Below, one piece after another: positions 1 through 6,028 of a stretch of DNA of 6,041 nt. This DNA is from a virus. Its lineage: Duplodnaviria > Heunggongvirae > Uroviricota > Caudoviricetes. How positions within the stretch are numbered: the stretch's first letter is position 1; the number at the start of each line of letters is the position of its first letter. Below the pieces are notes generated by a model. That model made no database searches, was not told where the DNA came from, and saw nothing but the letters and a program-made list of their open reading frames with translations. The stretch lies in the IMG/VR virus record IMGVR_UViG_2711768058_000006. One strand, written 5' to 3'. A program made the position numbers and the translations under genes.

Positions 1-1286
1 ATCTCTGTGAACTTACACAGCCTAACCAATACTTAATCTGTGATTCTTACGGTAACTACTATTTACGGATCACGCTGCCTGTGTATATGCAGCCCTTTTT
101 TGAAGGAAAAAGGACGTTTGTCAGGAGTCTGCACACAAGTAATCTTCGTGTTGCACGTAGAAAGCGTGATCAGATTGCAGATGAATACCATTGCTTACGG
201 GAGAGTGTTGCCCCTGTAAACAGCACAATAGAGAACACGCTGGAGCTATTACGCAGTAAGGCTAAATACGCCAAAACAGCTACCAGAATGCAAGATACAG
301 CGTCTTCGTGTCCGTCATTGCTTAAAATTCTTGAAATCTACCTGACAATTAACAGCACGAAGAAGAAGCCAGCCACTTTAGCTAAGGCAAGAAAAGCGGT
401 AGAGATGTTTCTCTCCTACCGTAAAAAGCCTGATATTGCATTGCAAGATGTGAGCCGCACCACTGTTACAGGCTGGATTGAACACATGCAAAAAACCCTT
501 TCACAACAATCAATTGCAAATTATATCAGCCCAATGGCCCAGCTATGGGAGTTAGCTTCATCACGTTACCACGATGCGCCAGAAAGGGCGCTCTCCCCCT
601 GGCGAGGGCATAGGCTTGATGTGGCACAAAGTAGAGAGAGCTACGAGGCATTTTCTAACAAAGAGCTATTGCAGGTGTTGCAAGTATTTTCCGGTAATTC
701 AGCAGAAAACAAAGAAATGATGGCTTTGTGTCTTATCGGTTTATATACAGGTATGCGGATCAATGAGATAGCAAGTCTCACAATAGACGATGTGAAAGAG
801 ATCGAAGGTGTGCTGTGTTTTGAAATCACACAGGGAAAAACGAAAGCTGCGGCACGTGTTGTGCCTGTGCATAGCCTTATCACTCCGTTGGTGTTATCTC
901 TTCGTGAAAAGCCTCACAATGGCTTTTTGTTCTATCACGCCAGCATCACAGAACGTGCTGATGGTAAACGTTCCACGTGGCACACGCAGAGATTTACAAG
1001 AGCTAAACGAAAGGCTTTAGGGGAAAAGGGAACAGAAAGGAAGGTGTTTCATTCTCTGAGACACGGAGTAGCACAGCTTCTTGATCGAAATCAAATTCCA
1101 GAAGACAGGATCGCCCTTCTCCTGGGCCATACACGCGGCAATACAGAGACATTCCGCACATATAGCAAGAATGCAGCTTCTCCAGTAGAGCTTAAAAACT
1201 ATATTGAGCTTCTACGCTACCCTGAAATAGAGAAAGGCTTATCAATCAATAAAAAATCAAATTTAAGGCGTAAAACAACGCCATAG
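1..1286 (+). CDS. int: Tyrosine-type site-specific integrase (lambda Int-like), 5' partial; frame is open from nt 3 to the window edge
   Basis: The frame of the 81..1286 ORF has no stop back to nt 3 and no ATG or SD before 87, so the gene most likely starts left of the window. The upstream in-frame translation ...NQYLICDSYGNYYLRITLPVYMQPFFEGKRTFVRSLHT resembles the lambda Int arm-binding N-terminus (NGYYCYRDPRTGKEFGLG, from memory). The C-terminal catalytic signatures are present: LYTGMRINE (box I Arg), HSLRHGVAQLL (H-x-x-R) and LLGHTRGNTETFRTY (His plus Tyr nucleophile). Stop is TAG at 1284-1286. Confidence 0.9.
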   Translation, partial: LCELTQPNQYLICDSYGNYYLRITLPVYMQPFFEGKRTFVRSLHTSNLRVARRKRDQIADEYHCLRESVAPVNSTIENTLELLRSKAKYAKTATRMQDTASSCPSLLKILEIYLTINSTKKKPATLAKARKAVEMFLSYRKKPDIALQDVSRTTVTGWIEHMQKTLSQQSIANYISPMAQLWELASSRYHDAPERALSPWRGHRLDVAQSRESYEAFSNKELLQVLQVFSGNSAENKEMMALCLIGLYTGMRINEIASLTIDDVKEIEGVLCFEITQGKTKAAARVVPVHSLITPLVLSLREKPHNGFLFYHASITERADGKRSTWHTQRFTRAKRKALGEKGTERKVFHSLRHGVAQLLDRNQIPEDRIALLLGHTRGNTETFRTYSKNAASPVELKNYIELLRYPEIEKGLSINKKSNLRRKTTP

Positions 1287-1293
1287 ACGCAAT

Positions 1294-1327
1294 AAAGAGG
1301 CTTCAACATAGATTGGTAGCCTCTTTT
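1294..1327. terminator. Candidate bidirectional intrinsic terminator between the convergent integrase and 237-aa genes
   Basis: Perfect 9-bp inverted repeat AAAGAGGCT (1294-1302) / AGCCTCTTT (1318-1326) around a 15-nt loop. The 3' arm ends in CTCTTTT on the + strand and is followed by TTTATT on the - strand. The loop is unusually long, so strength is uncertain. Confidence 0.4.
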
Positions 1328-1367: not shown

Positions 1368-2081
1368 CTATTCCTGCTTAAAGGCAGGCGTAATAGTATC
1401 TTCACCTTCACTACTTGATTTTTCAGTGTTAACACGTTTTTTCATATTCGCCCCGATGTTCTTAGATGGCTGTGTTTTGATAGCTACAGTGTTTACTGTG
1501 CCATAAGACACTAATCTGATCTGTTCAAATTCCAAATCAAATACCAGAGATTCGCTTGCCTCTTCTGTGTATTCGATGCCTGTTAAAACAACGTTCTCAA
1601 AAGTTTTATTTTCTGTAACAAGAAGAAAAGGCTGTCTACTGTCCATAATCTGATTCAGGTAATCTATAGCCAATGATCTTCTGTTCCCGTTCACCCCTGC
1701 ACTCTTTAACAAGCCAGGATCGCTTTTAATCGGTGTTTCAGTGATACGCCCTTTAAGAGAAAACTTATTATTCTTCACTTGAACGTGATCAGACACAGTA
1801 GCACCATTTTCTACGGGGTAGCTTGTGACATCTGCCGAACGTCTCACGTTCACATCGTCTACACTATCAAAGGCCAGTGCCATATAATTTTCATAAACGT
1901 CATTACCAGAAGATGCCAAGCCACTGGTAACAATAGCAAATCCATTCTCTCCTTTTGTTTTATTAGCTTTGCTATTTTCGTTTTTTGTAGAATTTATATC
2001 TTGTTCTGCTTTGTAAACAGCCTGAACGTGTTGTTCTGGGGAGTTTGCTGCACGTATGGTTAAAATCCCGGCGGTCGCCAT
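1368..2081 (-). CDS. Hypothetical protein, 237 aa; possible virion or tail-tip component (weak call)
   Basis: Intact ORF with ATG at 2079-2081 preceded by AAGGAAA, and last gene of the leftward operon. Lys/Asn/Ser-rich N-terminus and acidic C-terminal tail. The segment QPFLLVTENKTFENVVLTGIEYTEEASESLVFDLEFEQIRLV loosely resembles the C-terminus of lambda minor tail protein M (...VEFSAEFEQVVN, from memory). This is motif-level only. Confidence 0.6.
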   Translation of the reverse strand: MATAGILTIRAANSPEQHVQAVYKAEQDINSTKNENSKANKTKGENGFAIVTSGLASSGNDVYENYMALAFDSVDDVNVRRSADVTSYPVENGATVSDHVQVKNNKFSLKGRITETPIKSDPGLLKSAGVNGNRRSLAIDYLNQIMDSRQPFLLVTENKTFENVVLTGIEYTEEASESLVFDLEFEQIRLVSYGTVNTVAIKTQPSKNIGANMKKRVNTEKSSSEGEDTITPAFKQE

Positions 2082-2103: not shown

Positions 2104-3948
2104 TTATGGGGGGAATTCCCCGCCGTTGGATTGTCCTGATAAGCTGGTTAATGTTAATGATTTCAAGAAGCTATCCCGACTTGCTCTCGCTGTAAAATCC
2201 ACATAATCGCTTAATCTTGATGTGTCAGAATTAATAGTAAGCGGAACCTCTGTTACCACTTCAAATGTAGGATTCAGATTAAACACAGGAGATAAATTAT
2301 AAGCCGGAGTTGTCATTGCAAGATTATTTAAAGCACCCTGTTTGAGATTGGTTATCGGTGCTTCGCTGACTGACATTTTTACATCTGACACAGAAGATTT
2401 ATCATCGAAAAGCAATCCCTTAATCGTGTTAAAGAGAGAATGACTATTATCAGGTGTAGTTGTTGCAGTGCCAGCGCCTTTATATTGATCAGGAACGAGA
2501 TCAGAAAGATTTTGTTTCATTCCATCATTACTCAAAGGCGGTGCATCCCCCATATTTTTCTGAATAGCTTCCGTCTTATCATCATTACGATTAAACCAGT
2601 TTACAATCTTCATAATAGCTTCAAAGAGACTTCCTGTAGCTTCTCCTAGCTTCGTAAAATACGGAGTGAGATTAGAAAGGTTTTTCATAAACTCTTCCGT
2701 TACTTTTGGATCAAGAGATTTCATAAAGCCGTCTACGAATGCTACTTGCCTTGCATCAGAAAGCTGTGAAAGCTGTCTGTTTAGTTCTCTGAATTTAACA
2801 ATAGAGTCTTGCTGTGTTTCTGTTAGCCATTGTCCGGCGGCTTTTTGCTGATTAATACTTTCTTGTACATCTTTAACGGAACGTTGCCAATATTTTGACG
2901 TAAGCATCAAATCATCGCCCAGGTCTTCTAAACGTTGTCCAATTTGGGAGTCTGAAAAACCTTTTTTCATCATTCCATTAACAGCCTTAGAAATTAATCC
3001 GGCTGGATTATCAGCAAATTTTTTAAGGTCGCTTTTGTTAATAACACCGATGTTTAGAAGTTCATTAATAGCGTTATCACCGCCTTTCCATTCGCCGCCT
3101 TTACCAGTTTTTTTATCGACTACATATTCAGCTTCACTATAGGATTTTGCGGCACGTTCCCTAACATCTTTCATCTGATCCAGGTATTTCCTAGCCCCTT
3201 GATCACCCATCATAGAGTCAACGCCGTTTCTATACGCCCATTCTGTAATATTATACATCTGGTTAACGTCTACACCGCCAAGCCTTGCACGTTGGATTAA
3301 TTCTCCTTGTGTTTCAGCATTAGCGAAGCTGTTAGCCATAAATTCAGAGGTTTTACTAACAGCCATCACGCCAGCAGCAGCCGTAGCGCCTCCAAATAAC
3401 AGAGCGCCCATAGTGGCGGAGTTCCCTGATCCTCCCTTAACGGGGGCTAATTGAGCTTTTCTGTTGCCATTAATCTTACGTTGTTGCTGTTGTAGGCGTT
3501 TCATCTGACTATTCATACGTGCAAGCGAGATAGCCCCTTGCTCATATTGTTTTGCTATCTCTCTAGCCTGTGCAATAGCTTTGTATTGTTCCGCTACAGA
3601 GAGGCGGTGCATTGCACTGATAGAGCTTGACACATCGAGGAGCTTTAATTCTGCTTTCTCCTTACGTGCTGCTATTTGTTGCTGTTGCCTTGCCTGTGCT
3701 CTTGCTGCGGCAGCTTGTGCTCTTTGATTCTGTTTTTCGTTTTTCGCTTTCTGTTGAGCAATCTTGTCTACCTCGTTTTGTGCTTTCTTATAGCCTTTAG
3801 TGACAGTATCGAATCTTAATTTAGCTGGCTTGATATTTTCTGCGAATTCCTTTAAGCCTGTAATAGAGTCTTTCGCTTTTTTCAAGCTGTCTTTATCTAC
3901 ACTAAATGTAACTGTGTTCTTAATTTTAGAAGTGTTAATTTCTAACAT
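2104..3948 (-). CDS. Large coiled-coil protein, 614 aa; tail tape-measure-like or internal virion protein-like (hypothesis)
   Basis: ATG at 3946-3948 with SD AAGGGGA 6 nt upstream. The N-terminal third is Q/A/R/K-rich low-complexity coiled coil (QKAKNEKQNQRAQAAAARAQARQQQQIAARKEKAELK, about 3650-3720). This is followed by a Gly/Ala-rich hydrophobic stretch GGSGNSATMGALLFGGATAAAGVMAVS (about 3355-3435) and a long, apparently helical C-terminal region. That combination is typical of phage tape-measure or minor tail proteins, but no family is confirmed. Confidence 0.7.
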   Translation of the reverse strand: MLEINTSKIKNTVTFSVDKDSLKKAKDSITGLKEFAENIKPAKLRFDTVTKGYKKAQNEVDKIAQQKAKNEKQNQRAQAAAARAQARQQQQIAARKEKAELKLLDVSSSISAMHRLSVAEQYKAIAQAREIAKQYEQGAISLARMNSQMKRLQQQQRKINGNRKAQLAPVKGGSGNSATMGALLFGGATAAAGVMAVSKTSEFMANSFANAETQGELIQRARLGGVDVNQMYNITEWAYRNGVDSMMGDQGARKYLDQMKDVRERAAKSYSEAEYVVDKKTGKGGEWKGGDNAINELLNIGVINKSDLKKFADNPAGLISKAVNGMMKKGFSDSQIGQRLEDLGDDLMLTSKYWQRSVKDVQESINQQKAAGQWLTETQQDSIVKFRELNRQLSQLSDARQVAFVDGFMKSLDPKVTEEFMKNLSNLTPYFTKLGEATGSLFEAIMKIVNWFNRNDDKTEAIQKNMGDAPPLSNDGMKQNLSDLVPDQYKGAGTATTTPDNSHSLFNTIKGLLFDDKSSVSDVKMSVSEAPITNLKQGALNNLAMTTPAYNLSPVFNLNPTFEVVTEVPLTINSDTSRLSDYVDFTARASRDSFLKSLTLTSLSGQSNGGEFPP

Positions 3949-3962
3949 TTAAAATCCCCTTA

Positions 3963-4166
3963 TTAATCATTTTTATCACCTTCTTTGCTTAAGAAATGGT
4001 GTAGAGCCTGATCAATGCTCTCGTTTAATCTGAACATACGGGCTTTTACGCCTTCATAGGGAACATCTAAAAGAGAACATAGATATTTCAGATTTAACAA
4101 GCCTCTAGAATCATTAGCATCTAAATGTACGTGTACACCATTTTTTGATTTCAGAATCACTTCCAT
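3963..4166 (-). CDS. Small hypothetical protein, 67 aa
   Basis: ATG at 4164-4166 with a strong SD (AGAGGTGA, about 8 nt spacing). Its stop lies 14 bp before the 614-aa start, and it sits immediately downstream of the 4209-4235 hairpin. No recognisable motif. Confidence 0.55.
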   Translation of the reverse strand: MEVILKSKNGVHVHLDANDSRGLLNLKYLCSLLDVPYEGVKARMFRLNESIDQALHHFLSKEGDKND

Positions 4167-4190: not shown

Positions 4191-4235
4191 AAAAAATAAA
4201 TAAAAAAAGGCGAAGCGTGAATACACGCCACGCCT
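4191..4235 (-). terminator. Rho-independent terminator or attenuator on the minus strand, immediately after the 342-aa gene
   Basis: GC-rich hairpin: + strand GGCGAAGCGTG (4209-4219), loop AATA, CACGCCACGCC (4224-4234), giving 9 of 11 pairs. On the minus strand it is followed by a long U-tract (+ strand A-run 4191-4208, AAAAAAATAAATAAAAAAA). Its position inside the operon suggests partial termination, which would give higher expression of the upstream 120-aa and 342-aa genes. Confidence 0.6.
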
Positions 4236-4253
4236 CTATTACACGTTAAAATA

Positions 4254-5282
4254 TTATTTAACAGTGATTTGAACGGAGAAGCCTACACCGTGGTTTACCA
4301 CCATCTGGCTATTCTCGGTCACTACGTGCACTGCGTCGCCGCGAGAACCCTCATAACTATAGCTATACACCTCAGCAGGAGCGGCATTAATCAGTTCAAA
4401 GGTGCTGGAAGCTGCCCCGTAGATGCTCTGGTAGACGTTAGAGAATTTAGAGAACTTCGGAATCGCAACCGCATCAGAAGTCATATGTGCAAGGTGTAGC
4501 GGATCTACCAGTTTAACAACATCAATGTTAGTTCCTGGAATAGTGAACGCTGTCACTCCTGGTAGCAGGTCACGACGCTGATACACAACATTCCCTTCTT
4601 CCAGTGGGCTTACATACTGGAATGCGTTTGCCATACCAGCAGAGAATCGAATTGCAGAGAAGGCTTCCGGCTTACAGAAAACAACAATACGCTCTACAGC
4701 CGCCGCCTGACTCTGTGCTTTTTCGATAATGTCAGTAGCAATCTGATCAAATTCTTTAAAAATCTTCGTGGTGTCAGTGCTGGAAGCGTTCACAGTGGCT
4801 TTCATAGCTGATACGTTAAACAGCTTGCCCCACTCAATTAACACATCATCAGTTTTAGGCGTGTAAGTTTTGCCAGAGAACAAAGAAGCCGCCAACACGC
4901 TCTCTTTAGTACGCTGGAATGCAACATTGTGTTTAGCGATATATTCCGCATAGATATCAGTGAGTGTTTCCTGAAAATCAGTGCCAGGCTTACGCTTGCC
5001 TTGAACATCAGAAGGTCTAATCACATCCTCACGAAGAAAATACGGGATTTCGATCAGCCATTCTTTACCTTGTTCTCGCTTAGTAACGTTGTGTTCAGAA
5101 GAGAAACGAGAGGTTTCTTTGTTGAACAGAGATTCGTTGCTTTCGACAAGCTGGGAAACAGCTACTTTATGAGAACTAACGCCCACCGGATCAGTGAAGT
5201 CGAGAGTAGAAAGTAGATAATTTCTAGTGCTATGCGCAGAGAACAAAGGAGCTAAATCAACGTAATCATTACCTAGAATCAT
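4254..5282 (-). CDS. Putative major capsid protein, HK97-fold-like, 342 aa (hypothesis)
   Basis: ATG at 5280-5282 with SD AAAGGAA. The internal segment AVERIVVFCKPEAFSAIRFSAGMANAFQYVSPLEEGN parallels a segment I recall from T7 gp10 (DRVFYCDPDSYSAILAALMPNAANYAALIDPEKGS) and, more loosely, lambda gpE (IIVFDPKGWALFRSF). Length is close to lambda E (341 aa). The gene is followed by a strong terminator, consistent with a highly expressed structural protein. Not verified by any search. Confidence 0.7.
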   Translation of the reverse strand: MILGNDYVDLAPLFSAHSTRNYLLSTLDFTDPVGVSSHKVAVSQLVESNESLFNKETSRFSSEHNVTKREQGKEWLIEIPYFLREDVIRPSDVQGKRKPGTDFQETLTDIYAEYIAKHNVAFQRTKESVLAASLFSGKTYTPKTDDVLIEWGKLFNVSAMKATVNASSTDTTKIFKEFDQIATDIIEKAQSQAAAVERIVVFCKPEAFSAIRFSAGMANAFQYVSPLEEGNVVYQRRDLLPGVTAFTIPGTNIDVVKLVDPLHLAHMTSDAVAIPKFSKFSNVYQSIYGAASSTFELINAAPAEVYSYSYEGSRGDAVHVVTENSQMVVNHGVGFSVQITVK

Positions 5283-5300: not shown

Positions 5301-5663
5301 TTAAGAAGTGAAAACAGAGTGGAACCCTTCAAGCTGGAAGCCTTTTTTAATTAATGCTGTTTTTGCTGCTTCACTTACAGCATTCAGCGCATCAGCTTTG
5401 ATGCAGACAAGGCCAGCATTAGCACGAAGCACATCTACAGGCTTGTTTTCTCCAGCCGTTACAAATTCACTCATAACAACATAGATATCATCTCCTGATT
5501 CATATTTAGCGCCCGTGCTGGTGATCAAGTCTCCGCACTCAACATCAGCAGGAAGAGAAGCAAAAACCTTGCTTTCTACAGAGGCAAACGGATCAGTACA
5601 ATAACTTACAATATCTGTGAAAGTCTTTCGAACTGGAAATAGAGCGTCTAAATCAATAATCAT
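5301..5663 (-). CDS. Hypothetical protein, 120 aa; possible capsid accessory (decoration or scaffold-like) protein, based on position only
   Basis: ATG at 5661-5663 with a canonical SD (AAGGAGA, 8 nt spacing). It sits directly upstream of the capsid-like gene, analogous to a small head-accessory gene preceding a capsid gene. No sequence motif recognised. Confidence 0.65.
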   Translation of the reverse strand: MIIDLDALFPVRKTFTDIVSYCTDPFASVESKVFASLPADVECGDLITSTGAKYESGDDIYVVMSEFVTAGENKPVDVLRANAGLVCIKADALNAVSEAAKTALIKKGFQLEGFHSVFTS

Positions 5664-5872
5664 TTAGTAATCTCCTTAGCTTTTAATTTGATTAATTCAT
5701 TAAGGGAAGGTGTAGACGGAGAAGAAGGAGAAAAATATTTTTCAACACATCTTTCTACTTCCTCGACAGAACACCCAGCGTATTTAGCTACCATTTCGGT
5801 AATTTGTGGAGTAATTCGCAGCATTTCATTTTTATATTTTATGATTTGCTCTTTATCGTTTAAAAACAACAT
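5660..5872 (-). CDS. Small hypothetical protein, 70 aa; possible helix-turn-helix DNA-binding protein
   Basis: First gene of the leftward operon. ATG at 5870-5872 with a weak SD (AAGGT). Its TGA stop overlaps the ATG of the 120-aa gene (ATGA at 5660-5663), suggesting translational coupling. The segment ITEMVAKYAGCSVEEVERCVEKY has an HTH-like helix-turn-helix pattern. Confidence 0.55.
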   Translation of the reverse strand: MLFLNDKEQIIKYKNEMLRITPQITEMVAKYAGCSVEEVERCVEKYFSPSSPSTPSLNELIKLKAKEITK

Positions 5873-6028
5873 TTATATAAACCTTGTTACCTTGTTTAAA
5901 GTAAGAAATACAACTTTTAAGTTGCATAACGGGCAAAATAAAAGGCAGCATTTAAAGCCGCCTTTGTAATTACCCTATGTTATGCACACTCCAAGATGTA
6001 TGCATAACAAAGGAAAGAGGTATAGGTA
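5873..6028. promoter_or_regulatory. Divergent promoter/operator region with repeated operator-like half-sites
   Basis: Perfect inverted repeat TGTTATGCA (5978-5986) / TGCATAACA (6001-6009) with a 14-bp spacer. A third copy of the half-site, TGCATAAC, lies at 5923-5930. There is a dyad CAACTT-TT-AAGTTG at 5911-5924 and a tandem repeat CCTTGTTA/CCTTGTTT at 5882-5897 next to the 70-aa start. Exact -35/-10 elements could not be assigned with confidence. Confidence 0.45.
5931..5966 (-). terminator. Terminator-like hairpin on the minus strand inside the right intergenic region
   Basis: Minus-strand sequence AAAGGCGGC-tttaaat-GCTGCCTTT (9-bp stem with one G-U pair, + strand 5941-5966) followed by TTTTATTTTG (+ strand 5931-5940). 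Confidence 0.35.

What the first reader, a model, noticed from the sequence alone, without database searches (positions are those of the whole stretch)
2104..3948. 614-aa coiled-coil protein with Q/A/R-rich low-complexity and Gly/Ala hydrophobic segments
The architecture is typical of tape-measure or minor tail proteins, but the protein is short for a tape measure and sits in an operon with no tail-tube gene. It could set tail length in a helper-derived tail, act as an ejection or internal protein, or be a scaffold. The low-complexity Q/A repeat (about 3650-3720) may also be prone to length variation.
Basis: partly seen in the sequence, partly recalled or inferred. Interest (0 to 1): 0.55.

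Follow-up and report, generated by a model that had tools for sequence, protein, structure and literature searches.

The report
Satellite-island copy of a phage tape measure
The 614-residue protein is a shortened relative of the tail tape-measure protein of phi92-type virulent E. coli phages, but it sits on a 12-kb chromosomal island with no tail of its own, so it most likely lets a phage parasite rebuild the tail it takes from its helper phage.

Summary
The ORF at 2104-3948 (minus strand) is real and its described features are present. [quoted passage not shown] The next gene (1368-2081) is 61% identical to phi92's tube initiator gp135.

Both genes lie on a 12.4-kb integrative island at thrW. 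The island has an integrase, a replication initiator, an iteron-rich region and its own divergent capsid gene. It has no portal, terminase, sheath, tube or lysis genes.

The same gene order recurs in E. coli, Klebsiella, Kluyvera, Citrobacter and Phytobacter, at different attachment sites, and once as a circular 14-kb contig.

Island TMPs are 596-625 aa and phage TMPs 634-668 aa. The island gene is under purifying selection (dN/dS about 0.2). In this copy the two termini match phage TMPs more closely than they match the sister E. coli island.

Best reading: a satellite-encoded TMP that builds chimeric, slightly shorter helper tails, as recently shown for Vibrio cholerae PLE. This is inferred, not tested. 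The Q/A tract shows no length variation. I found no paper describing this island family.

The parts
2104..3948 (-). Tape measure protein (TMP) homologue, 614 aa
   Evidence: phrog_16051 'tail length tape measure protein', E = 4e-53. phi92 gp134 (PDB 21vq_V), E = 6e-38, matching aa 1-67 and 147-610. Family profile against 21vq_V, E = 7e-221. dN/dS 0.16-0.20.
3823..3948 (-). TMP N-terminal segment (aa 1-42), phage-like
   Evidence: 73% aa and 75% nt identity to phi92 gp134. Only 43% aa and 40% nt identity to the sister E. coli island allele.
3634..3768 (-). Q/A/R-rich low-complexity part of the N-terminal helical 'ruler' half (about aa 61-105)
   Evidence: Low-entropy windows and predicted helix 19-165. 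No indels among 115 close homologues and no DNA tandem repeat. This half is where island TMPs are shorter than phage TMPs.
3349..3420 (-). Gly/Ala-rich hydrophobic segment (about aa 177-200)
   Evidence: Kyte-Doolittle 19-residue maximum 1.6 at aa 179-197. phi92 gp134 has an equivalent segment at aa 245-263, aligned.
2899..3276 (-). Conserved central core of the TMP family (aa 225-350: NGVDS...KDVRER...KGGD...LGDDLM)
   Evidence: Most of the invariant and near-invariant columns of the 21-sequence alignment lie here. About 40% identity to all members, islands and phages alike.
2119..2238 (-). TMP C-terminal segment (aa 571-610). Its last ~28 residues align with the part of phi92 gp134 (residues 631-656) seen inside the baseplate.
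   Evidence: Alignments. 65% identical to Phapecoctavirus phiWec188 and 38% to phi92. Location of the phi92 residues from PMC13450770.
2116..2118 (-). Codon 611 is GAA here and TAA in other copies, adding four residues (EFPP)
   Evidence: Direct comparison with L002, L003 and L014. 4 of 115 close homologues carry the extension.
1368..2081 (-). Tail tube initiator homologue, 237 aa
   Evidence: Pfam Dit_like, E = 3.6e-29. 61% identical to phi92 gp135. PDB 21vq_N, E = 1.2e-78, plus other 'tube initiator' chains. gp135 is the hexameric tube initiator.
3963..4166 (-). Conserved 67-aa protein directly upstream of the TMP gene; function unknown
   Evidence: A small ORF (60-76 aa) sits in this position in every island gene map examined, and homology was confirmed in 6 of them. 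127 homologues. No similarity to phi92 gp132 or gp133. Model is a beta-hairpin plus 3 helices with no fold match.
4254..5282 (-). Island's own major capsid protein (HK97 fold, lambda E family), 342 aa
   Evidence: Pfam Phage_cap_E, E = 1.2e-14. 22% identical to phi92 gp124. PDB hits 9zbi_A and 21uy_N.
5301..5663 (-). 120-aa protein upstream of the capsid gene, in the position of phi92's cement protein gp123; homology not shown
   Evidence: Synteny. hhalign against gp123 negative. Only a weak PHROG hint in the sister allele (E = 0.068).
5660..5872 (-). 70-aa first gene of the structural operon; function unknown
   Evidence: ORF list. Conserved in related islands.
4212..4236 (-). Terminator-like hairpin with T-run between the capsid gene and the 67-aa/TMP genes
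   Evidence: Pattern scan and sequence. Function not tested.
5941..5965 (-). Terminator-like hairpin in the operon leader, downstream of a sigma-70-like promoter that lies just outside the window
   Evidence: Function not tested.
1295..1325 (-). Hairpin (AAGAGGCT...AGCCTCTT) between the convergent tube-initiator and integrase genes
   Evidence: Read from the sequence. The scan did not flag it because the loop is long.
81..1286 (+). Tyrosine integrase at the island's left end
   Evidence: Pfam Phage_integrase, E = 1.1e-17. RefSeq uses an upstream start. The 20-bp att repeat lies outside the window.

Best explanation
The gene encodes a tape measure protein carried by a small integrative, phage-satellite-like island, not by a phage. 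The island supplies only a few virion parts: its own capsid protein, this TMP, a tube initiator and small proteins of unknown function. Everything else would have to come from a helper phage.

The likely helper is a large virulent myophage of the phi92 / Phapecoctavirus group (Stephanstirmvirinae) or a relative. On helper infection, three copies of the island TMP would dock by their C-terminus in the helper's baseplate hub, under the island's own tube-initiator ring. They would then template polymerisation of helper tube and sheath.

The result would be a chimeric contractile tail about two rings (7-8 nm) shorter than the helper's, carrying the island's TMP. This is the mechanism shown experimentally for Vibrio cholerae PLE and phage ICP1.

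Shown here: the homology, gene content, mobility, selection and length pattern. Inferred: the helper's identity, incorporation into tails and the effect on tail length.
For: 1. TMP identity.
- phrog_16051, E = 4e-53.
- phi92 gp134, E = 6e-38, covering both termini; family profile E = 7e-221.
- The shared hydrophobic segment sits in the equivalent position.
- gp134 is a trimer whose residues 631-656 lie inside the baseplate (PMC13450770).

2. Partner gene. The downstream protein is 61% identical to the hexameric tube initiator gp135.

3. Satellite-like carrier.
- 12.4 kb, bounded by 20-bp direct repeats at thrW.
- Integrase, an O/DnaD-like replication initiator (phrog_270, 1.6e-9) and iterons.
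- No ORF that could be a portal, terminase, sheath or tube protein.

4. Spread and mobility.
- The TMP gene is in 486 of 5426 complete E. coli genomes.
- The same island occurs inside srsR with a different integrase protein.
- The same gene order occurs in Kluyvera, Phytobacter and Citrobacter, and the small upstream protein's homologues are mostly from Klebsiella.
- One relative is a 14,065-bp contig with a 30-bp terminal overlap and an ORF crossing the junction.
- Relatives carry Shedu and JukA defence cargo, as known satellites do.

5. The gene is maintained. dN/dS is 0.16-0.20, and the length stays at 610-622 aa in five compared alleles, the most distant only about 36-39% identical.

6. 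Length pattern. Ten TMPs with confirmed island context are 596-625 aa. Four with confirmed phage context are 634-659 aa. The difference lies in the N-terminal helical half: 234-266 aa against 274-307 aa.

7. Length arithmetic. In phi92, 659 aa span 24 tube rings plus the initiator and hub rings, at a rise of 38.63 A. That is 1.52 A per residue, so 610 aa predicts about two fewer rings.

8. Phage-like termini.
- aa 1-42 are 73% identical to phi92 but 43% to the sister island.
- aa 571-610 are 65% identical to phiWec188.
- The ruler segment groups islands with islands (29.9% against 17.3% to phages).

9. Precedent. PLE-encoded TMP and BhuB replace ICP1's proteins in PLE virions. Tails are 10 nm shorter, and deleting tmp cuts transduction by 96-99.9% (PMC12987554).
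Against: - No experiment or dataset here shows induction, packaging or any virion that contains this protein.
- A search for the excised attP junction in metagenome and IMG/VR contigs found nothing.
- No tail assembly chaperone was found on the island. The 67-aa protein upstream resembles neither phi92 gp132 nor gp133 nor any solved fold.
- No small terminase or other packaging factor was recognised, so how a 12-kb genome would be packaged is unknown.
- The island capsid protein is only 22% identical to phi92's, so compatibility with the helper's portal and scaffold is unproven.
- Some related islands lack the tube initiator, so that gene is not essential to the family.
- The predicted two-ring shortening is small and its benefit is unclear.
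- Phage-like termini could partly reflect slower evolution of interaction surfaces rather than exchange with helpers.
- P0125 and P0136 were counted as island TMPs by length only.
Confidence: 0.6

Rival explanations
1. Decoy or poison. The island TMP, with or without the tube initiator, mainly blocks the infecting phage. Its phage-like termini would let it enter the phage's tail assembly pathway and produce defective or mis-sized tails, protecting the bacterial population. Island transfer would be secondary or absent. This could also coexist with the best explanation.
For: The termini resemble those of phi92 and phiWec188. Related islands carry defence systems. Interference with tail assembly is a documented strategy of satellite-borne defences: Rta in PLE11 and the Tai systems (abstract of PMC11364771, listed).
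Against: - The protein keeps the whole TMP architecture and a tightly conserved length across deep divergence. A pure inhibitor would not need either.
- It is always linked to a capsid gene in one operon, which argues for particle building.
- It has no match in PADLOC.
- In the one tested system, PLE, the satellite TMP is a structural part of the satellite's virions.
Confidence: 0.2
2. Non-tail role. The protein serves the island's own capsid as a scaffold, or as an internal or ejection protein, as the first reader also suggested.
For: It is long, helical and low in complexity. The island has no recognised scaffold.
Against: Homology to a TMP located by cryo-EM runs from residue 1 to the C-terminal baseplate segment. 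The gene sits immediately upstream of a tube-initiator gene, as in phi92. No scaffold or ejection-protein family matched.
Confidence: 0.05
3. Relic. The genes are leftovers of a decayed prophage and no longer do anything.
For: Only a subset of virion genes is present. Some copies carry IS insertions, for example strain JMF1 and the tube-initiator gene of O104:H4 2009EL-2050.
Against: - dN/dS is about 0.2 and the frame is intact at 63% and at about 36-39% protein identity.
- The same reduced gene set recurs across genera, at different att sites, and as a circular contig.
- The phage relatives are 130-150-kb virulent phages, and no integrase appears in the regions I read.
Confidence: 0.05

Closest known systems
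phi92 gp134, trimeric tape measure protein of Escherichia phage phi92 (Justusliebigvirus; PDB 21vq chain V; PHROG 16051)
   Same: Homologous from the N-terminus to the C-terminal baseplate segment. The hydrophobic segment and central core sit in the same places. The gene lies directly upstream of the tube-initiator gene.
   Different: - 614 (usually 610) aa against 659 aa.
- It lacks the Gly/Ser/Pro-rich insert and the Arg/Glu-rich coil of the phage proteins.
- Overall identity is about 30%.
- It is encoded on a 12-kb chromosomal island with an integrase, not in a 148-kb virulent phage genome.
- No TAC gene precedes it.
TMP/TAC/BhuB tail cluster of Vibrio cholerae PLE satellites (helper ICP1), Nature 2026, PMC12987554
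   Same: A satellite of a large virulent myophage encodes its own shorter TMP next to a baseplate-core protein. The identities to the helper's counterparts are similar: low for the TMP, higher for the baseplate protein. PLE's proteins are built into chimeric tails that are 10 nm shorter.
   Different: - Different host and different presumed helper.
- This island also encodes a capsid protein, whereas PLE virions contain ICP1-encoded capsid proteins remodelled by PLE's TcaP (abstract of PMC10945586 listed).
- No TAC was recognised here.
- Sequence relatedness to PLE proteins was not tested.
- The function here is inferred only.
Capsid-forming PICIs (cf-PICIs)
   Same: Integrative satellites that make their own capsids and rely on helper tails. 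Some are reported to carry putative tmp genes (legend of Extended Data Fig. 10 in PMC12987554).
   Different: This island has only a capsid protein and small unknown proteins.
EPIP satellites of Mycolicibacterium (bioRxiv 2025, PMC12822802)
   Same: The preprint lists a tape measure protein and a major capsid protein among the genes of a small satellite.
   Different: Their host is an actinobacterium and their helper is a prophage. They carry a small terminase and head-tail adaptors, and their tails are longer than the helper's and variable.
P4-like satellites
   Same: Similar size, tRNA-site integration and variable defence cargo at one end. One relative of this island lies next to a P4-like element.
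   Different: None of the three P4 hallmark proteins that have Pfam models (Psu, Ogr/Delta, cII) matched on this island. P4 encodes neither a capsid protein nor a TMP (my recollection of the P4 literature).

Membership tests
Tape measure proteins of phi92-type contractile tails (PHROG 16051) | Significant sequence homology over the whole length to a TMP whose place in the tail has been seen | tested here: met
   phrog_16051, E = 4e-53. 21vq_V, E = 6e-38 over aa 1-67 and 147-610. Family profile, E = 7e-221. gp134 located by cryo-EM.
Tape measure proteins of phi92-type contractile tails (PHROG 16051) | Conserved C-terminal segment that docks inside the baseplate hub | tested here: met
   The last ~28 residues (aa 583-610) align with phi92 residues 631-658. 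The last 40 aligned residues (aa 571-610) are 65% identical to phiWec188. Docking itself was not tested.
Tape measure proteins of phi92-type contractile tails (PHROG 16051) | Gene lies immediately upstream of the tube-initiator and baseplate genes | tested here: met
   The tube-initiator homologue starts 22 nt after the TMP stop codon. The order matches phi92 gp134-gp135.
Tape measure proteins of phi92-type contractile tails (PHROG 16051) | Preceded by a tail assembly chaperone gene | tested here: not met
   The 67-aa upstream protein shows no similarity to phi92 gp132 (TAC) or gp133 and has no fold match. The helper's TAC would have to serve.
Tape measure proteins of phi92-type contractile tails (PHROG 16051) | Long helical N-terminal half followed by a hydrophobic Gly/Ala segment | tested here: met
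   Helix predicted over aa 19-165, at low confidence. The hydrophobic maximum at aa 179-197 matches phi92's at 245-263.
Tape measure proteins of phi92-type contractile tails (PHROG 16051) | Present as a trimer in the tail lumen, with its length setting tail length | not testable with these tools
   Needs virion mass spectrometry and EM. The only support here is arithmetic: 1.52 A per residue in phi92, which predicts about 2 fewer rings.
Phage satellites (general) | Discrete integrative element with an integrase and att repeats, able to occupy different sites | tested here: met
   20-bp direct repeats at thrW, 12.4 kb apart. A copy lies inside srsR with a different integrase protein. A related element is a circular 14-kb contig.
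Phage satellites (general) | Lacks genes essential for an autonomous virion (portal, terminase, tube, sheath, lysis) yet carries homologues of some phage parts | tested here: met
   ORF lists and Pfam, PHROG and NCBIfam scans of the whole island.
Phage satellites (general) | Induced, replicated and packaged only when a helper phage is present | not testable with these tools
   A replication-initiator homologue and iterons are present. The attP junction search found nothing.
[quoted passage not shown] | Sequence relatedness to PLE genes; V. cholerae host; ICP1 helper | not tested
   No PLE sequence was available in the collections. This island's hosts are Enterobacteriaceae. Vibrio phages were not among the ten listed organism groups of TMP matches.
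Capsid-forming PICI | Complete head and packaging module (portal, protease, connectors, small terminase) plus alpA and pri-rep | tested here: not met
   Only a capsid protein was recognised, and no remaining ORF is longer than 237 aa.
P4-like satellites | psu, delta/ogr, sid, alpA, epsilon, primase | tested here: not met
   No Psu or Ogr_Delta Pfam match in the island. These families were found only in a neighbouring element in L016.

The most novel reading that the evidence does not exclude
These islands form an undescribed, widespread family of Enterobacteriaceae phage satellites that parasitise large virulent phi92/rV5-type myophages. They would build their own small capsid and reprogram the helper's tail with their own shortened TMP, sometimes also with a tube initiator. 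The phage-like TMP termini would be exchangeable modules that decide which helper's baseplate and neck the satellite can use. That would make tail reprogramming a general satellite strategy and give it an E. coli model.
Probability: 0.45. Interest if true: 0.75.

Novelty: new variant of a known kind. Interest (0 to 1): 0.6.

Why it matters
A satellite that builds its own tape measure into a stolen tail was first shown in 2026, for Vibrio cholerae PLE, and its benefit is still unknown. If this island works the same way, the strategy arose in an apparently separate satellite family in the best-studied bacterium.

The island is common: the TMP gene is in about 9% of complete E. coli genomes, including O104:H4 strains. 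The presumed helpers, phi92- and rV5-type phages, are popular candidates for phage therapy. Such islands could lower phage yield or move DNA between strains during treatment.

The phage-like termini combined with a satellite-specific ruler give a direct, testable handle on how a TMP is chosen and docked during tail assembly.

Tried and rejected
- Pfam and NCBIfam gave nothing for the TMP. Only PHROGs and PDB sequences identified it.
- Single-sequence AlphaFold2 of the TMP was too poor (pLDDT 42.5) for a fold search.
- Megablast of the window against phage genomes found nothing.
- The 67-aa protein is not a detectable tail chaperone. hhalign against phi92 gp132 and gp133 was negative. A 24-sequence AlphaFold2 model (pLDDT 71.5) had no Foldseek match in the PDB with E below 1.
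- The 120-aa protein could not be linked to phi92's cement protein gp123.
- A pattern scan of one genome per species returned only 5 loci.
- IMG/VR hits were mostly contigs of 19-76 kb, longer than the island. They look like prophage calls from isolate genomes, judging by their identifiers, and say nothing about packaging.
- Three searches for the excised attP junction found nothing.
- Nine literature searches found no paper on this island. Two candidate papers were read and were unrelated.
- Rejected readings: flotillin (a RefSeq name for the sister allele), scaffold, ejection protein, decayed prophage, cf-PICI, P4-like.
Full report
OBSERVATION

The ORF at 2104-3948 on the minus strand is real and encodes 614 aa. 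Its ATG at 3948-3946 follows an AAGGGG ribosome-binding site, and RefSeq uses the same start.

- Low complexity. A Q/A/R-rich tract spans about aa 61-105.
- Hydrophobic segment. There is one Gly/Ala-rich segment at about aa 177-200, with a Kyte-Doolittle 19-residue maximum of 1.6. I found one such segment, not several.
- Helical N-terminal half. A single-sequence AlphaFold2 model predicts near-continuous helix over aa 19-165, but at low confidence (pLDDT 42.5). No dedicated coiled-coil predictor was available.

In this window codon 611 is GAA, where other copies have TAA. This allele is therefore four residues longer than the usual 609-612 aa.

WHAT THE PROTEIN IS

Pfam and NCBIfam have no model for it. 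Three other comparisons identify it:
- It matches PHROG 16051, 'tail length tape measure protein', at E = 4e-53.
- In tblastn against phage genomes it hits 134 records. Most are about 130-154-kb Escherichia, Klebsiella and Citrobacter myophages of the phi92 / Phapecoctavirus group.
- Against PDB sequences it matches phi92 gp134 at E = 6e-38. The match covers aa 1-67 against 1-66 and aa 147-610 against 215-658. A 21-sequence family profile scores E = 7e-221.

The 2026 cryo-EM study of phi92 (PMC13450770) shows gp134 as a trimer whose residues 631-656 sit inside the baseplate. That stretch aligns with the C-terminus of this protein. The hydrophobic segment sits at the equivalent place in both proteins.

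The gene downstream (1368-2081) is 61% identical to phi92 gp135, the hexameric tube initiator (PDB E = 1.2e-78).

The protein is therefore a tape measure protein (TMP) homologue in the canonical position. At 614 aa it is not unusually short, because phage members of the family are 634-668 aa.

WHERE IT SITS

The window is part of a 12.4-kb island bounded by a 20-bp direct repeat that includes the 3' end of tRNA-Thr thrW. The island carries:
- a tyrosine integrase
- the tube initiator and the TMP
- a 67-aa protein
- a capsid protein of the lambda E / HK97 type, only 22% identical to phi92's
- 120-aa and 70-aa proteins
- several small unknown proteins
- an O/DnaD-like replication initiator
- about 3 kb without ORFs but full of iterons

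No ORF could be a portal, terminase, sheath, tube or lysis protein. phi92-type phages are virulent and about 148 kb, so the island is not a recent fragment of one.

HOW WIDESPREAD AND MOBILE IT IS

- The island matches 606 of 5426 complete E. coli genomes. The TMP gene is in 486 of them.
- A sister lineage has about 71% nucleotide identity and a 613-aa TMP. It occupies thrW in strains such as O104:H4 2009EL-2050.
- A third copy sits inside the srsR gene with a different integrase protein.
- A search of 1.84 billion representative proteins found only 74 clusters, so the family is narrow.
- The same gene order recurs in Kluyvera, Phytobacter, Citrobacter and unnamed assemblies. It runs: small protein, about 120 aa, capsid protein of about 345 aa, 60-76 aa, TMP, then sometimes a Dit-like protein and usually an integrase.
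- Homologues of the small upstream protein are mostly from Klebsiella.
- One relative is a complete 14,065-bp contig with a 30-bp terminal overlap and an ORF reading across the junction. It is therefore probably circular.
- Relatives carry Shedu and JukA defence genes at the far end, as known satellites do.

PROPERTIES OF THE ISLAND TMPs

Selection and length. The gene is under purifying selection, with dN/dS of 0.16-0.20. It stays open and close to 610-622 aa in five compared alleles, the most distant only about 36-39% identical.

Indels. Among 115 close homologues the only internal indels are single residues near aa 171, 284 and 517. None lies in the Q/A tract, and that tract has no DNA tandem repeat.

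Islands against phages. Ten TMPs with confirmed island context are 596-625 aa. Four with confirmed phage context are 634-659 aa. The shortening lies in the N-terminal helical half: 234-266 aa against 274-307 aa up to the conserved NG[VI]D motif. There the islands lack the phages' Gly/Ser/Pro-rich insert and Arg/Glu-rich coil.

Termini. The termini behave differently from the middle:
- aa 1-42 are 73% identical (75% at the DNA level) to phi92, but only 43% (40%) to the sister E. coli island.
- aa 571-610 are 65% identical to Phapecoctavirus phiWec188.
- The ruler segment groups islands with islands: 29.9% identity among islands against 17.3% to phages.

The ends that must touch other tail parts look phage-matched or exchanged, while the ruler is specific to the islands.

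MECHANISM

I propose that the island is a satellite of phi92 / Phapecoctavirus-type or related myophages. Its TMP would dock in the helper's baseplate hub under the island's own initiator ring and template helper tube and sheath.

The arithmetic is as follows. phi92 has 24 tube rings with a rise of 38.63 A. Counting the initiator and hub rings, 659 aa correspond to 1.52 A per residue. A 610-aa TMP then predicts about two fewer rings, or 7-8 nm.

The precedent is PLE of Vibrio cholerae (PMC12987554):
- PLE-encoded TMP and BhuB replace ICP1's proteins in PLE virions.
- The tails are 10 nm shorter.
- Deleting tmp cuts transduction by 96-99.9%.
- The authors call PLE the first satellite family known to do this, and note putative tmp genes in other satellites.

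All functional steps for the E. coli island are inferred.

WEAK POINTS

- No tail chaperone or packaging factor was recognised. The 67-aa protein matches neither phi92 gp132 nor gp133 nor any solved fold.
- No excised junction turned up in metagenome or IMG/VR contigs.
- The island's capsid protein is very distant from phi92's.
- Some relatives lack the tube initiator.

RIVALS

- Decoy that poisons the helper's tail assembly (0.2). This is compatible with the phage-like termini and the defence cargo. It is hard to reconcile with the conserved full architecture and length, or with the constant linkage to a capsid gene. There is no PADLOC match.
- Scaffold or ejection protein (0.05). The end-to-end TMP homology contradicts it.
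- Decayed prophage relic (0.05). Selection, recurrence across genera and mobility contradict it.

COMPARISON AND NOVELTY

The protein belongs to the phi92-type TMP family. One feature is missing: no chaperone gene precedes it.

The island meets the sequence-testable criteria for a satellite but is neither a cf-PICI nor P4-like. Relatedness to PLE was not tested.

Nine literature searches found no description of this island family. The library lacks most subscription journals, so I cannot exclude one.

I rate it a new variant of a known kind: a satellite-encoded TMP, here combined with the satellite's own capsid protein and directed at a different phage group.

Noticed in passing
window 2116-2118 and 2110: Codon 611 of the TMP is GAA here but TAA in three other copies, and a second nearby base also differs. 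This allele ends in four extra residues (EFPP). Only 4 of 115 close homologues share the extension.
   Followed up: yes
window 3963-4166 (minus strand): A small protein of 60-76 aa (67 aa here) lies directly upstream of the TMP gene in every related island gene map examined. It has 127 homologues, mostly in Klebsiella. The predicted fold is a beta-hairpin plus three helices, with no match to tail chaperones or to any solved structure. It could be a TMP partner, a regulator or a packaging factor.
   Followed up: partly
window 4212-4236 and 5941-5965 (minus strand); promoter at about L003:20120-20155: One terminator-like hairpin follows the capsid gene. Another lies in the operon leader, downstream of a near-consensus sigma-70 promoter (TTGACA, 17 nt, TAATAT) just outside the window. 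This suggests control by read-through or antitermination.
   Followed up: no
L003:22472-25442 (same island, outside the window): About 3 kb of the island has no ORFs but holds several iteron-like repeat families, for example 22-bp units at 23717-23799. No gene is annotated under the match in 13 of the 15 records sampled. This is probably the replication origin and perhaps a packaging site.
   Followed up: partly
L014 (NZ_CP062910.1) and L003/L004: The same island occurs at two attachment sites, thrW and inside the srsR gene, with different integrase proteins. At thrW the chromosome side of attL varies between strains, which may mean other elements sit in tandem there.
   Followed up: partly
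L057 (Logan SRR7500800_3305, 14,065 bp): A relative of the island assembles as a probably circular contig, with a 30-bp terminal overlap and an ORF crossing the junction. It carries a ParA-like gene, which hints at a plasmid-like or excised form.
   Followed up: partly
L008:655-1668, L006:857-1609, L016:12156-17066: Related islands carry defence genes (Shedu SduA, JukA) at the end far from the structural genes. One lies next to a P4-like satellite with Psu, Ogr/Delta and cII genes.
   Followed up: partly
L004 (O104:H4 2009EL-2050) 8824-14604: In the sister island the TMP is 63% identical to this one, but the capsid-side genes are too diverged for tblastn at E = 1e-3. The island is therefore mosaic. 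In this strain an IS5-family element also splits the tube-initiator gene. Some RefSeq genomes name this TMP allele 'flotillin family protein'.
   Followed up: partly
window 2104-3948 compared with L014:9001-10833: The two TMP alleles are nearly identical except for a block around alignment columns 301-400, where dN is 0.26 and dS is saturated. This points to recombination inside the gene.
   Followed up: no
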